Shown one piece after another: positions 1 through 59,918 of a stretch of DNA of 64,000 nucleotides (position 1 is its first letter; every line of letters starts with the position of its first letter). The DNA is from Eledone cirrhosa (lineage: Eukaryota), in contig OZ024744.1 in the NCBI GenBank assembly GCA_964016885.1, positions 45,198,001 through 45,262,000 of the forward strand, written 5' to 3'. The notes under the pieces are model-generated. The model was not told where the DNA came from, made no database searches, and saw only the letters and a list, made by a program, of their open reading frames with translations. A program made the translations under genes and the position numbers.

Positions 1-349
1 GTCCCCTACTACGTAGTTTCGTGGCATATTATGCAAAAACATATATTTATATACATATATATACACATATATTTATATATAGAGAGAAAGGATAAATTAC
101 TGAATAACTTATTAGATGATGTTCAATTAATAACTTACCCCTTAATTTTGGCTTGATTGAAGCACTGCGAGGGGACACTGTAATATGGTCACCTAGAATA
201 TATAAACAAAATCATAGTAAACCTACATGTATATATACAAATAACATTACAAATACAGGAAACAGTAATTAGATTCATTATCTCTGAAATATACATATAT
301 ACACCAGGTCCAAACACAAATGGACTAAACTCCCGCTGTCCCAGCCATT

Positions 350-487
350 TATATATATATATACATATATATATATATATATATATATATATATATATAT
401 ATATATATATATATATATATATATATATACATATATATATATATATATATATATATATATATATATATATATATATATATATATATA
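350..487. repeat. (TA)n microsatellite, representative of many (e.g. 14006, 14185, 23668, 25345, 25655, 38751, 46861, 47055, 59229)
   Basis: Visible dinucleotide tracts; lengths differ between the arms. Confidence 0.95.
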
Positions 488-794
488 GTGAAAGTATTCA
501 GGACGCCGACTGGTTAGCTCCGTAAATATACATTTACTACTAAATACACACGCACAGAGAGTGCACACACACAGCCTCACAATCACACAAACACAAACAG
601 GGCTCACACAGAACCTAACACACACCCTCAAAAAAGAATGTCCGGAGAAACGCACCCGAACACGTACACAATGAACACAACATCAACATACACATAACAC
701 CAACATCACTTTCCTTATATATCTACGCACTATTTTATTCATTAGTTCCATCATACGCATTACATAGATTTCCATGTATACAAATATACAATAT

Positions 795-890
795 AATTGT
801 TTCTACTTTTGGCACCAGTGCATTACTGGTACTTTATTTTATCAACGCCATAAGGATGAAAGGCAAAGTTAATATCGGTGGGATTTGAAG
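795..890 (-). mobile_element. SINE 3' fragment (mirror ~58825-58920)
   Basis: TACTGGTACTTTATTTTATC...AAGGATGAAAGGCAAAGT is shared with the full copies at 24716 and 56776. Confidence 0.75.
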
Positions 891-1259
891 TCAATTTGAT
901 ATTAATGTTGAAACACGTGTAATAGTTTTCTGTACTAACTGGGCAGAAAATGTGTTTGAAATACAACTTACTTTCTTTGGATCCACCTTTTTTAGGTGTG
1001 TCTGACTCGGAGACAAATATCACTACAGGAATCATACCTGGAAAAATATATACGGAAGAAAATAATAATAAAAGCTAGAAGACTTTCTTGAGAAGAGATT
1101 ATTGTCAAGTTGAAGAAAGGGTAGAATAACTTGTTGTTTATTGAATCCACTAGATCCATATATACGGTTTGTTCTGTCAATGTCATGCTTACTTATCCCA
1201 CAAATCTAAAACTTACAAAAGGAGTAAAGTGTGGCTCGTCATATGTGGGTTGTCTAGAA

Positions 1260-55073: not shown

Positions 55074-56775
55074 CATACATACATACATATATACATATCA
55101 ATATTGCAAAATGGGGATATTTAAAGGATAGGGACATTGTGTGTGACTGCGGCATCAAACCACAGACTGCGTGGCACCTCCTGATATGACCCCTGCTGGA
55201 ACATCCCTGCACAACATTGGACGTGACAGAGTTTAATGAGAAAGGACAGCTGTGGCGGAACTACATCTAACCAAGCTTTGTAACTGACACTCTTGTGGAC
55301 ACGACAAGAAGAATACAGAGTTGTGTGTCTAAAACAGGTAGTCTGTAGTTTGGGCAGTCTATTTTAATACTCTAGTGGATGGAGGGGTATTTATTTGCTG
55401 AATGATTTTTACCGTTTATTTCTAGTCCCTTGATGATTTCTTTAGCGGCATGTCTATACTACTGTACAGATAACCTCTACATAATGGGAGAACATATTTA
55501 GGGCTAAATGGTTCTTGGCTACTCGTTCTTTGAGTGTCATATCCAAACATATGATAAAGAGATTGGCTAAATCACGAGTGATGCTGACCGATGTTAGCCC
55601 CTCAATATTGTTCTTATACTGACCATTTTCCTTGTCTGATCATGGTTTTCGAGGGTCTTTATTTGCTCAGGTCCATGCGCTCCATCTTTATTGCCATTGG
55701 AATAATTGTTTCTACGTTTGACACAAGGCCAGCAATCACCTAGTGTATTACTGGTACTTTATTTTATCGGCCCCGTAAGGATGAAAGGCAAAAATGGCTG
55801 GTGGTGTGTTACATCATAACATGGTGGGACAGAGACTGCAAAAGCTATTATTGTGTAGATATTCTTTGTCACAAATGAGTCTGGGGAGGATTCACTGGTC
55901 CCTGATTGAAACTTACGGCAATATGTCATGTTCGTAGATGTTATCCCTGGGGGGGAATTAGCTAACAAATATAGAAAGTTCCTAAGAAAGACCCACTTAA
56001 AGCTTAAAGTGGTAGAAAAGCCAGGAACTACCATAAAATCCCTGATCAGCAAAACATATCCTTTAAAAAAAACCACTGTACTAATAATTCTTCCTTAACT
56101 GTTCCTTAACTGTTCTTCCTTAACTGGCCTATATAAGTGTCTCTGAGTCAGACACACCAACAAATGGTATATCGAAAGTTAGTCTGTACAGAAAACTATT
56201 ACACGTGTTTCAACATTAACATCAAATCGACATTAAATTGTATATTTGTATACATAGAAGTTTATGTAATGTATATGGTGGAGTTGATGTATAAAATAGT
56301 GTGTACATATATAAGTGAAGTGATGTTGGTGTTATGTGTATGTTGATGTATACATGTAGGTATATGGGGTTGTATATAACTTTATCGTTTACCTGTTTGG
56401 GTGTGTTTGTCAGATGGTGCCTTTTTGTTGTTTGTTATTTGTATATATACATGTAGGTTTACTATGATGTTGTTTATATATTCTAGGTGACCATATTACA
56501 GTGTCCCCTCGCAGTGCTGCAATGAATCCTGAAGCTACTGAAAAGAGTAAGTTATAATTTAAACATCATGTAATAAGTTATTCAGTAACTTATTTAGGTT
56601 TTCAAAAGTAAATTTATAACTACGTAATTCAGTCAAGAATATCAAACCCTATATTACAAACTCCCTAACATAATCCAGAATAAACATTTTATTGACTTCC
56701 TCAGAGACCTTGTAATGAGGACAAAAGTAAAGATAGACTTTTTTAGGGCATTATCAGAGATAGATGAGAAATAAT

Positions 56776-56961
56776 TGTTTCTACTTTAGGCACAAGGCCA
56801 GCAATTACCCAGTGCATTACTGGTACTTTATTTTATCGACCCCGTAAGGATGAAAGGCAAAGTCAACCTCGGCGGTATTTGAACTCAGCTCGTAAAGGGA
56901 CGTAACTATGCTGGAAAGCATGGCGTCCGACCCTCTACCGATACTGCCAATCCACCACCAC
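56776..56961 (-). mobile_element. Young SINE insertion with 18-bp TSD, right arm only
   Basis: TSD AGATAGATGAGAAATAAT at 56758-56775 and 56962-56979; single-copy empty site at ~3128-3145. Confidence 0.93.
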
Positions 56962-57646
56962 AGATAGATGAGAAATAATGACATATTATTTGGTTCAAAT
57001 GAGAAGATAAATGTTGCCCTAGATTCATTGGGGTAGATGGAATTATCTCACAGACCAGTATTCTTATCTTTAAGAAAACTTCATCCGACAGTTCTTCACC
57101 CTTTCTTGTCTCCCTTCATTGTTCATACACTGCATCCTCTTATTCACTACATCAGCCAGTACCCTAAATATTTGGTTAAACCACTATATATCTCTGTTCT
57201 TCAGGACCAGTGGGAAACTGTAGAATATTTCTCTCATAATTCTAGACATCCCACATATGACTAGCCACACTTTACTGCTTTTGGAAGTTTTAGATTTGTG
57301 GGAAAAGTAAGTATGTCCTTGAGAGAACAAACCGTATAATTTGATCTAGTTGATTAAATAAATGACAACTCACTCTACCCTTTCTTCAATTTAACAACAA
57401 ACTCTTCTCAAGAAAGCCTTCTAGTTTTCCTATTATTTTCTTCCATATTTTTTCCAGGTATGACTCCTGTAGAGATCTTTGTCTCTGAGTCAGAAACACC
57501 TAAAAAAGGTGGATCGAAAGAAAGTAAGTTGTATTTCAAACACATTTTCTACCCAGTTAGTACAGAAAACTATTACACGTGTTTCAACATTAATATCAAA
57601 TTGACATTATATTGTATATTTGTATACATGGAAGTTTATGTAATGT

Positions 57647-58533
57647 GTGCCCCTCCAACCCATCCCTCCCAACTTCAGAGTTGGTACCATGAAAGTAGGC
57701 ACATTGAAAGGTCGCTCAAATGAGGTTGTAGAGAGGCTTGAACATAAAGAAGTTGATGAGTGTTGTGTTCAAGAGACTAGGTGGAGAGGTGGGTCTGCCA
57801 GATTCATCGTGGGTAAAAAGCGATGCTATAAACCTTTCTGGGTGGGAAATGACAACGGACTGGGTGGTGTAGGAATTATGTTAGCTAAAAAATAGGTAGA
57901 TAAGGTAATTGACGTAAATAGAGTGAATGACAGAATAATTAAAATAATACAAGTTCTAAATAGAACTACTGTGACAATAATATCCGCTTATGCACCCCAA
58001 TCTTATCTACCTGACAAGGACAGGTTCTATGAGACGCTAATGCACACTACCTCCCAAATAACCGACAGCGACTACCTAATTATTGCTGGCGATCTAAACG
58101 ACCACGTCGGACAACATAGTGATGGCTATGATGGAATCCATGGAGGCTATGGGTTTGGAAATAGAAATGAGGAAGGCTTCAGAATCCTGGAATTCTGTGA
58201 CGCTAATAACCTAACTATCTGTAACACAAACTTTAAAAAACGAGAAAACTACTTGATCACCTATAGATCAGGGGAACACGCCAGCCAGATAGATTATATC
58301 CTTACTAGAAGACAGACGTGACAAAGTGTCTGTTGTAAACACTAAATCCCTCCGCCGTGAAGAATGCACCTCCCAGCATAGCCTAGTAGTTAGTGACCTC
58401 ATAGTTAGGAATAGATGTACACGACGACAGAGGAGGACTATCTTGAGGAGAAGAATATGGAAGTTGAAGGATCCCATAGCCAGTGACAAATTTAAAAGCT
58501 TATTACTTGAAGCCTTTGACAATAAGGAAGAGC
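57647..58533 (+). pseudogene. RTE-clade LINE fragment (mirror of 1575-2460, truncated by an arm-specific deletion)
   Basis: Mirror ORFs 57647-57895, 57923-58321, 58326-58538. Confidence 0.9.
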
Positions 58534-59918
58534 ATTGACAGAACAAACCGTATATATGGATCTAGTGGATTAAATAAACAACAAGTTATTCTACCCTTTC
58601 TTCAACTTGACAATAATCTCTTCTCAAGAAAGTCTTCCAGCTTTTATTATTATTTTCTTCCGTATATATTTTTCCAGGTATGACTCCTGTAGTGATATTT
58701 GTCTCCGAGTCAGACACACCTAAAAAAGGTGGATCCAAAGAAAGTAAGTTGTATTTCAAACACATTTTCTGCCCAGTTAGTACAGAAAACTATTACACGT
58801 GTTTCAACATTAATATCAAATTGACTTCAAATCCCACCGATATTAACTTTGCCTTTCATCCTTATGGCGTTGATAAAATAAAGTACCAGTAATGCACTGG
58901 TGCCAAAAGTAGAAACAATTATATTGTATATTTGTATACATGGAAATCTATGTAATGCGTATGATGGAACTAATGAATAAAATAGTGCGTAGATATATAA
59001 GGAAAGTGATGTTGGTGTTATGTGTATGTTGATGTTGTGTTCATTGTGTACGTGTTCGGGTGCGTTTCTCCGGACATTCTTTTTTGAGGGTGTGTGTTAG
59101 GTTCTGTGTGAGCCCTGTTTGTGTTTGTGTGATTGTGAGGCTGTGTGTGTGCACTCTCTGTGCGTGTGTATTTAGTAGTAAATGTATATTTACGGAGCTA
59201 ACCAGTCGGCGTCCTGAATACTTTCACTATATATATATATATATATATATATATATATATATATATATATATATATATATATATATATATATATATATAT
59301 ATATGTATATATATATATAAATGGCTGGGACAGCGGGAGTTTAGTCCATTTGTGTTTGGACCTGGTGTATATATGTATATTTCAGAGATAATGAATCTAA
59401 TTACTGTTTCCTGTATTTGTAATGTTATTTGTATATATACATGTAGGTTTACTATGATTTTGTTTATATATTCTAGGTGACCATATTACAGTGTCCCCTC
59501 GCAGTGCTTCAATCAAGCCAAAATTAAGGGGTAAGTTATTAATTGAACACATCATCTAATAAGTTATTCAGTAATTTATCCTTTCTCTCTATATATAAAT
59601 ATATGTGTATATATATGTATATAAATATATGTTTTTGCATAATATGCCACGAAACTACGTAGTAGGGGACTATAGAAGCAGTTTAGGTATGATATATCTT
59701 ATTACTATTTATATCTAATGTTTCTTCTCTCTTCATAATGTATTATATATATATATATATATATATATATATATATATATATATATATATATTCCGGGGA
59801 AAGAGGGAGTTTGGTCCATTTGTGTTTGGACCTGGTGTATATATGTATATATCAGAGATAATGAATCTAATAACTGTTTCCTGTATTTGTAAATTTATTT
59901 GTATATATTTGTATATAT

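What the first reader, a model, noticed from the sequence alone, without database searches (positions are those of the whole stretch)
1..59670. Giant (at least 60 kb) inverted duplication with a 3.2-kb spacer
Seen: 1-32192 and 35391-59670 are reverse complements with scattered substitutions and several arm-specific indels, there is no N-gap at the centre, and the match runs to the window edge, so the structure may be larger. Known: such palindromes arise by fold-back, breakage-fusion-bridge or template switching, and can persist by arm-to-arm gene conversion, as in sex-chromosome amplicons. Inference: either a real, recent amplicon that duplicates the candidate gene/promoter at 11.8-13.4 kb, or two allelic haplotypes mis-joined head to head.
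Basis: partly seen in the sequence, partly recalled or inferred. Interest (0 to 1): 0.8.

Follow-up and report, generated by a model that had tools for sequence, protein, structure and literature searches.

The report
Giant fold-back palindrome duplicating orphan gene
The window is the centre of a gap-free, roughly 410-kb mirror-image duplication in an animal chromosome; it likely arose when a broken DNA end folded back on itself, and it carries two head-to-head copies of a predicted gene with no known relatives built from dozens of 60-base exons, although an assembly error cannot be excluded without the raw reads.

Summary
Observation confirmed and far larger: arms run to about -238.3 kb and +175.1 kb in window coordinates (270 and 140 kb), spacer 3,198 bp, no N. 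The apex lies in a Ty3/gypsy element inserted in an old LINE. Relatives of both repeats show the spacer is two pieces of one ancestral locus: one inverted junction (first spacer about 1 kb) plus a 3.7-kb deletion in the right arm. The left outer end is native, the right abuts a 93-kb satellite, as fold-back and a second break predict. Arm divergence climbs from 0.3% to 2% outward while distance to an older paralog stays near 2%, suggesting arm-to-arm homogenisation near the centre. Each arm holds a predicted orphan gene: a 73-codon basic first exon (17 copies on two chromosomes and one small scaffold) and 20-35 frame-preserving 60-nt exons. Read-level proof is missing; I put real at about 0.8, haplotype mis-join at 0.2. 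A new member of a known kind. The scan noted only a loosely similar bacterial palindrome elsewhere (e1-4958917).

The parts
1..32192 (.). Left arm (continues to about -238,310; 270 kb in all)
35391..64000 (.). Right arm (continues to 175,122; 140 kb in all, then a 93-kb 20-bp satellite)
32193..35390 (.). Single-copy spacer, 3,198 bp, made of two pieces
30739..35132 (-). Ty3/gypsy LTR retrotransposon, left copy: 3' LTR 30739-31020, RT-RNaseH-integrase, gag region; broken (in-frame stop in pol, about 585 bp of the 5' end with the 5' LTR absent)
35131..35392 (+). 260-bp piece of the old LINE into which the gypsy inserted; lies 192 bp upstream of the insertion site in intact relatives; its left end is the fold-back junction, its right end a 3.7-kb deletion junction
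35391..36845 (+). Gypsy remnant of the right arm: part of integrase and 3' LTR 36563-36845
28864..30738 (-). 3' part of the host LINE (RTE-like is my recalled label), left arm
36846..38720 (+). 3' part of the host LINE, right arm
15350..21869 (.). 6,520 bp only in the left arm; 15451-19459 is present in paralog D, so at least partly a right-arm deletion; holds reverse-transcriptase ORFs
49072..49291 (+). Predicted first coding exon of the orphan gene (73 codons + 1 nt, phase-1 donor), right arm
11802..12021 (-). Same exon, left arm (one amino-acid difference)
56487..56546 (+). First 60-nt phase 1-1 micro-exon, right arm
59477..59530 (+). 54-nt in-frame micro-exon variant, right arm
63577..63829 (+). 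Two further 60-nt micro-exons (63577-63636, 63770-63829); the array continues to 98.6 kb
3357..3416 (-). First 60-nt micro-exon, left arm
139..192 (-). 54-nt micro-exon, left arm; the array continues to -54.7 kb
47892..47993 (.). 102-bp hairpin (mirror 13146-13247): two abutting ends of a dispersed repeat, likely DNA-transposon terminal repeats, 1.1 kb upstream of the first exon

Best explanation
This is most likely a real interstitial palindrome made by fold-back of a broken chromosome end, later widened at its centre and partly re-homogenised near it. Shown: the arms, spacer anatomy, outer ends and divergence gradient. Inferred steps: (1) a break inside an old LINE, about 1 kb beyond the start of a gypsy element's gag, was resected and the end folded back onto gag, giving the 35131/35132 junction and a first spacer of about 1.04 kb; (2) replication produced a mirror chromosome; (3) a second break 175,122 bases into window coordinates was joined to a satellite array, losing what lay beyond the apex; (4) a 3.7-kb deletion in the right arm widened the spacer to 3.2 kb, which would stabilise it; (5) the arms then gained insertions and deletions independently, while exchange between arms, strongest near the apex, kept the inner 27 kb at 99.6%. 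The result is two divergently oriented copies of a predicted micro-exon gene, one more step in a family that already sits in inverted amplicons.
For: No N at the apex or either outer end in 764 kb. The 260-bp piece is collinear with the arm-side LINE in 29 of 30 relatives, 192 bp apart in 16 of the 25 measurable, so it belongs to the right arm; the two junctions share only 1-2 bp, no repeat overlap for an assembler to confuse. Left outer end continues natively in a dispersed repeat as in 39 of 39 other scored copies, whereas the right end stops mid-element at the satellite: one native and one new outer junction. The sequence beyond the apex was not found: best other match to the 260-bp piece 91% (40 of 259 candidates scored); 0 of 30 loci with the missing 190-bp piece carry the LTR or gag (40 of 83 scored); none of 40 scored of 94 candidates ends at the apex; paralogs D, E, F keep a shared upstream region that this locus lacks. 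Spacer size matches human fold-back duplications (median 3,428 bp; PMC3907307, passages). Divergence per 10-kb block 0.31 to 1.70%, rho 0.95, permutation p 1e-4; against paralog D the arm split falls from 1.38% to 0.14-0.47% inward while D stays about 2% in four of six bins (Fisher p 1.3e-6). The same gene family has another inverted pair on C18 and 0.22-0.25% near-identical copies.
Against: No read evidence. 1-2 bp of microhomology is near chance (13% of simulated junctions had 2 bp or more in PMC3907307). Divergence of about 1% with transposon indels is what two alleles of a heterozygous invertebrate can look like, and alleles sharing the gypsy insertion could also be most alike near it. No N was seen in any of 1,986,162 bases fetched, so I could not show that this copy of the assembly keeps its gaps. 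Contigs often end at LTR elements and satellites, which is where two of the three junctions lie. No GC-biased conversion signal: arm-specific changes run S>W 144 to W>S 83. Two outgroup bins (4.0% and 5.1%) break the flat line, probably through tandem repeats. Human cases end in a telomere, translocation or ring; this one is interstitial.
Confidence: 0.6

Rival explanations
1. Heterotype false duplication: the arms are the two haplotypes of one 140-270-kb locus, one placed backwards beside the other, with both joins gap-filled or unmarked.
For: Allele-like divergence (0.92%) and indel load; junctions at an LTR element and a satellite; low divergence at one end fits a bubble edge or shared ancestry around the gypsy insertion; false duplications in recent assemblies are mostly on the same scaffold and are sometimes joined by wrong gap filling (PMC9516828, passages).
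Against: Needs two unsupported joins without N; the apex joins two positions about 1 kb apart in the ancestral locus with no overlap; the continuation that both haplotypes must have was not found in three searches (each scoring only 40 candidates); near-identical family copies elsewhere differ by only 0.22-0.25%, so either allelic divergence is lower than the outer arms or real young amplicons are common here.
Confidence: 0.2
2. Real palindrome, but made by joining two homologous chromatids (U-type exchange) or by one multi-switch replication event; the arms began with allelic differences and the gradient or the deletions date from that event, with little later conversion.
For: Gives the same junctions; the largest losses (3.7, 6.5 and about 100 kb) are all on the right arm, as serial template jumps would give; no GC-bias signature.
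Against: Both arms carry private insertions with target-site duplications and the left arm also lost 2.3 kb, so much change postdates the event; an almost monotonic fivefold gradient over 140 kb is not expected from allelic ancestry alone (inference).
Confidence: 0.15
3. Ordinary segmental duplication of the family's 150-kb unit that happened to land inverted next to its source by ectopic recombination among paralogs C, D, E.
For: The region holds at least five older copies of the unit in both orientations.
Against: The two arms start within about 1 kb of each other in the ancestral sequence and share the LINE-gypsy end that paralogs D, E, F lack; no homologous repeat at the apex.
Confidence: 0.05

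Closest known systems
Fold-back inverted duplications of human chromosomes (Hermetz et al. 2014, PMC3907307; passages and the section on complex rearrangements read)
   Same: Large inverted copy, single-copy spacer of a few kb (median 3,428 bp there, 3,198 here), tiny junction homology, loss of the sequence beyond the apex, a second new junction.
   Different: Interstitial and old (0.3-2% diverged, many later insertions) rather than de novo and terminal; spacer reshaped by a second deletion; 1-2 bp homology rather than 2-8.
Mammalian X/Y palindromic amplicons (PMC8327919, PMC8600007; passages read)
   Same: Arms over 8 kb (8-140 kb there), spacer instability, lineage-specific gene family in the arms.
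   Different: Identity is 99.6% only in the inner 27 kb and 98-99% with large indels further out, not up to 99.99%; sex linkage, testis expression and conversion are untested here.
Mouse transgene palindrome stabilised by asymmetric central deletions (as reviewed in PMC8701086; passages read, original papers not read)
   Same: Asymmetric deletion at the centre.
   Different: That was a perfect 15.4-kb palindrome; here the first spacer is inferred to have been about 1 kb already, and even short spacers stabilise per the same review, so the deletion may be neutral.
Mouse autosomal palindromic duplication SD12A1 (PMC13688818; passages read)
   Same: Large diverged palindrome in a segmental-duplication cluster.
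   Different: Uniform 93% identity without homogenisation there; a centre-outward gradient here.
Heterotype false duplications (Ko et al. 2022, PMC9516828; passages read)
   Same: Adjacent near-identical copies with allele-like divergence.
   Different: Those are most often split by a gap and have half depth; no gap here, depth untested.

Membership tests
Fold-back inverted duplication | Inverted copy with a kb-scale single-copy spacer | tested here: met
   3,198 bp spacer; 260-bp piece has no other match above 91% among 40 scored
Fold-back inverted duplication | Inverted microhomology of 2 bp or more at the spacer junction | tested here: inconclusive
   1 bp shared with most LINE relatives, 2 bp with a minority variant; 2 bp at the deletion junction
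Fold-back inverted duplication | Sequence beyond the apex lost; one native and one new outer junction | tested here: met
   (not found, searches capped at 40 scored)
Fold-back inverted duplication | Terminal deletion healed by telomere, translocation or ring | tested here: not met
   Locus at 45 Mb of a 136-Mb scaffold, right end joined to a satellite
Fold-back inverted duplication | Junction present in the animal's DNA | tested here: inconclusive
   only collapsed low-depth contigs and one RAD run were available
Sex-chromosome-type palindromic amplicon | Arms over 8 kb with over 99% identity | tested here: inconclusive
   Length met; 99.63% inner 27 kb, 99.2% middle, 98.4% outer by substitutions alone, plus large indels
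Sex-chromosome-type palindromic amplicon | Arm-to-arm gene conversion | tested here: inconclusive
   Gradient against outgroup is indirect; no GC bias; no population data
Sex-chromosome-type palindromic amplicon | Sex chromosome location and germ-line expressed genes | not testable with these tools
   No RNA run held the stretch searched; chromosomes are unnamed
Heterotype false duplication | Assembly gap between the copies | tested here: not met
   No N in 764 kb; but none in any fetched stretch either
Heterotype false duplication | Half read depth, discordant pairs, one-copy k-mers | not testable with these tools
   No raw whole-genome reads offered
Ty3/gypsy LTR retrotransposon | Domain order RT, RNase H, integrase; LTRs with short target-site duplication | tested here: met
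   Pfam PF00078, PF17917, PF17921, PF00665 in that order; 283-bp LTRs, 5-bp duplications in 5 of 7 relatives inspected; this copy has lost its 5' LTR
Protein-coding spliced gene (orphan family) | Open frame, conserved splice sites and phase across diverged copies | tested here: met
   Exon 1 open in 15 of 16 parsed (17 found); 143 of 152 micro-exons 60 nt, 145 AG, 148 GT, 5 with stops; distant paralog 59 of 66 parsed, all 60 nt, none with a stop
Protein-coding spliced gene (orphan family) | Transcript or known homolog | tested here: inconclusive
   No homolog; no RNA tested; last exon not found

The most novel reading that the evidence does not exclude
A lineage-specific family of basic, SP-repeat proteins, encoded by a 73-codon head exon plus an expandable array of 20 to over 60 interchangeable 60-nt exons, is spreading on two chromosomes as ampliconic palindromes; this copy is a natural fold-back caught with its full history readable, and shows arm-to-arm conversion that decays with distance from the apex, an invertebrate parallel to mammalian sex-chromosome amplicons.
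Probability: 0.3. Interest if true: 0.72.

Novelty: new member of a known kind. Interest (0 to 1): 0.5.

Why it matters
If real, it is a germ-line fold-back palindrome whose birth, central deletion and ageing can be read from nested transposons, with several outgroup copies in the same genome; 800-900 arm differences along a 140-kb gradient make the distance dependence of arm-to-arm exchange directly testable. It also exposes an unannotated multi-copy micro-exon gene family. If false, it flags an ungapped 140-kb haplotype duplication that inflates that family's copy number.

Tried and rejected
Reads: Logan contigs of three runs of one sample (X5-X7) and X1 on 28900-36500, and X5-X7 plus one RAD run X8 on 35030-35490, showed no listed piece across either centre junction and no cover at 35206-35237 in any of the four; the same contigs also lacked this locus's private gypsy letters in the two-copy arms, are collapsed onto repeats of 50-600x depth, and may come from another animal, so the hole says nothing. 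Homolog searches for exon 1: none at E 0.01 among longer proteins; no Atlas hit; no Pfam; two profile hits were repeat-driven chance matches, a bacterial repeat protein and an unnamed fish protein; proteins of near length were not searched and the 19-residue repeat could not be searched. pN/pS of exon 1 is only weakly below 1 between subfamilies (0.5-0.8; 0.19 for one pair) and above 1 among close copies on few changes. My first reading of the outer boundary (left end new) was wrong: a 100-bp deletion in the left copy hid the true end. GTG-repeat ORFs at 12.6-13.2 kb are simple repeats, not the gene. No palindrome centre in C18:7.35-7.45 Mb. C159 against C28:217-287 kb gave one 95.8% alignment, probably a satellite out of register, not used. 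Long ORFs of the right arm beyond the window looked like transposons by eye (output cut; not Pfam-scanned). Literature searches for a centre-outward identity gradient (0 papers), for cephalopod palindromes and for ampliconic micro-exon families (PMC11703226 passages unrelated in structure) found nothing matching; the taxon words were a guess from the repeat landscape. Supplements were not opened.
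Full report
Observation. Self-alignment confirms that 1-32192 and 35391-59670 are reverse complements: 37 blocks, 91 substitutions in 23,136 bases, longest exact inverted match 1,497 bp against 72-80 bp in controls. The window is C28:45198001-45262000 of a 3.0-Gb, 1,796-scaffold animal assembly. With 300 kb upstream and 400 kb downstream the arms extend to about -238.3 kb and 175.1 kb, with no N. Overall 920 substitutions in 99,636 non-simple columns (0.92%).

Centre. 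The spacer holds most of a Ty3/gypsy element on the minus strand (RT, RNase H, integrase). Eight other genomic copies show a 5-kb element with 283-bp LTRs; the left copy stops at 35132, about 585 bp short of its 5' end, and is broken by an in-frame stop in pol. Bases 35131-35392 are a piece of an old LINE on the plus strand. In 29 of 30 relatives this piece is collinear with the LINE flank that follows the LTR in both arms, 192 bp away in 16 of 25 measurable cases. So the gypsy had inserted into this LINE, the 260-bp piece belongs to the right arm, and the right arm lost about 3.7 kb (192 bp of LINE and 3,520 bp of gypsy). The strand really turns at 35131/35132, where gag meets a LINE position about 1.04 kb further out in the ancestral locus. 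Shared bases are 1-2 at the turn and 2 at the deletion. This is the geometry of one fold-back with a 1-kb loop followed by one deletion (inference; model and spacer sizes from PMC3907307, passages and section 9; central deletions from PMC8701086, passages).

Outer ends and lost sequence. Homology ends inside a dispersed repeat. The left arm continues in that repeat as 39 of 39 other scored copies do; the right arm stops mid-element at 175,122 and runs into a 93-kb array of a 20-bp satellite, then into a 5'-truncated older copy C of the arm (268-428 kb). Neither the 5' LTR nor the upstream LINE occurs in the 764 kb, and three genome searches did not find the continuation beyond the apex (with 61, 95; each scored 40 of 259, 83 and 94 candidates).

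Age structure. Older paralogs lie at C28:43.1-43.4 Mb (D), 46.5 Mb (E) and 34.1 Mb (F). D follows the left arm to -150 kb, so the left arm's extra 115 kb is at least in part ancestral and the right arm lost about 100 kb; part of 15350-21869 is also in D. Both arms have private insertions (18 events tested, several uninformative). Arm divergence per 10 kb rises 0.31, 0.49, 0.64, 0.66, 0.82, 0.85, 0.74, 1.26, 1.70% (rho 0.95, p 1e-4; tandem zones dropped). Against D the arm split is 0.14, 0.47, 0.75, 0.83, 0.97, 1.38% while D sits at 2.0-2.3% in four bins and 4.0 and 5.1% in two that include tandem repeats (micro-exon zone dropped). The inner arms therefore share a younger ancestor than the outer arms; arm-to-arm conversion or exchange is my reading, but arm-specific changes show ordinary S>W bias (144 to 83) and no population data were available. 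The gypsy copy is 1.9-2.7% from its relatives, compatible with insertion shortly before the duplication.

Gene. Each arm carries an ATG-initiated 220-nt exon with a phase-1 donor (49072-49291; 11802-12021) encoding a basic 73-residue head. It has 17 copies (10 on C28, 6 on C18, 1 on C159), open in 15 of 16 parsed, with an in-frame 6-nt indel between subfamilies. Downstream lie phase 1-1 micro-exons: 35 in the left arm, 20 in the right, 39 in C, 58 in the fetched part of D; 143 of 152 are 60 nt, 145 have AG, 148 GT, 5 a stop. In a paralog about 10% diverged, 59 of 66 units parsed, all 60 nt and stop-free although the peptide has changed strongly. That pattern indicates selection on splicing and frame; transcription is untested and no last exon was found. 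No homolog was found. My guess at function, from composition only, is a disordered intracellular basic protein with phosphorylatable SP repeats, possibly germ-line. Other copies also sit in inverted or near-identical amplicons.

Real or artefact. False duplications are most often split by a gap and show half depth, but some are joined by wrong gap filling (PMC9516828, passages). Here a mis-join needs two unmarked joins, one with no overlap, and the true continuation should exist somewhere. Against that, divergence is allele-like, two junctions touch repeats where contigs break, alleles could share a gradient around a shared insertion, and I saw no N in 1,986,162 fetched bases, so gap retention is unproven. 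The available reads could not decide. I put real at about 0.8 (fold-back with later homogenisation 0.6) and mis-join at 0.2.

Comparison and verdict. It works like a human fold-back inverted duplication, but is interstitial and aged; it resembles X/Y palindromic amplicons (PMC8327919, PMC8600007, passages) without meeting their identity throughout, and with sex linkage and expression untested; unlike mouse SD12A1 (PMC13688818, passages) it shows a gradient. One search for such a gradient returned no paper, which is thin evidence of novelty. New member of a known kind, interest 0.5; the orphan micro-exon family is the part most worth following.

Noticed in passing
G000:C18:8,530,004-8,612,854 (L222-L230): Tail-to-tail inverted amplicon between two copies of the same orphan gene, spacer about 39 kb, identity falling toward the spacer.
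   Followed up: partly
G000:C28:217-243 kb vs 4.52-4.55 Mb and C159: Inverted near-identical copies (0.22-0.25%) of the gene unit 4.3 Mb apart plus an unplaced 189,000-bp scaffold; may be a megabase palindrome or haplotigs.
   Followed up: partly
G000:C28:4,552,160-4,639,258 (L145-L153): At least 59 micro-exons of a diverged repeat type in one paralog, array still running at the edge of the fetched DNA.
   Followed up: partly
window coordinates 175,112-268,200 (L052-L061): 93-kb array of a 20-bp satellite; shorter arrays of the same unit lie inside each copy of the arm.
   Followed up: partly
window 14253-15618 and 17411-18759: Nested 1.36-kb inverted repeat (95%) of reverse-transcriptase-bearing repeats inside the left arm; orientation differs between paralogs.
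   Followed up: partly
window 47892-47993 and 13146-13247: 102-bp hairpin, z -21, kept at 97-98% in four other paralogs; halves match a repeat with over 1,000 candidates.
   Followed up: partly
G000:C18 and C28:126.7 Mb: Five distant gene copies have a piece of the same LINE family 7-12 kb upstream of exon 1 in the same orientation; may be the ancestral insertion.
   Followed up: no
G000:C12:17.02-17.48 Mb: Eight matches of equal score about 60 kb apart: a tandem segmental array.
   Followed up: no
L029:1484-4138 (-), window coordinates 145.5-148.1 kb: 885-codon open frame inside a 4.5-kb insertion found only in the right arm, likely a young DNA transposon.
   Followed up: no
window coordinates 152.9-163.0 kb and 428.4-464 kb: 420-bp tandem arrays (25 and at least 84 units) at the same point of the right arm and paralog C; 33-bp array at -154.9 to -151.3 kb.
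   Followed up: no
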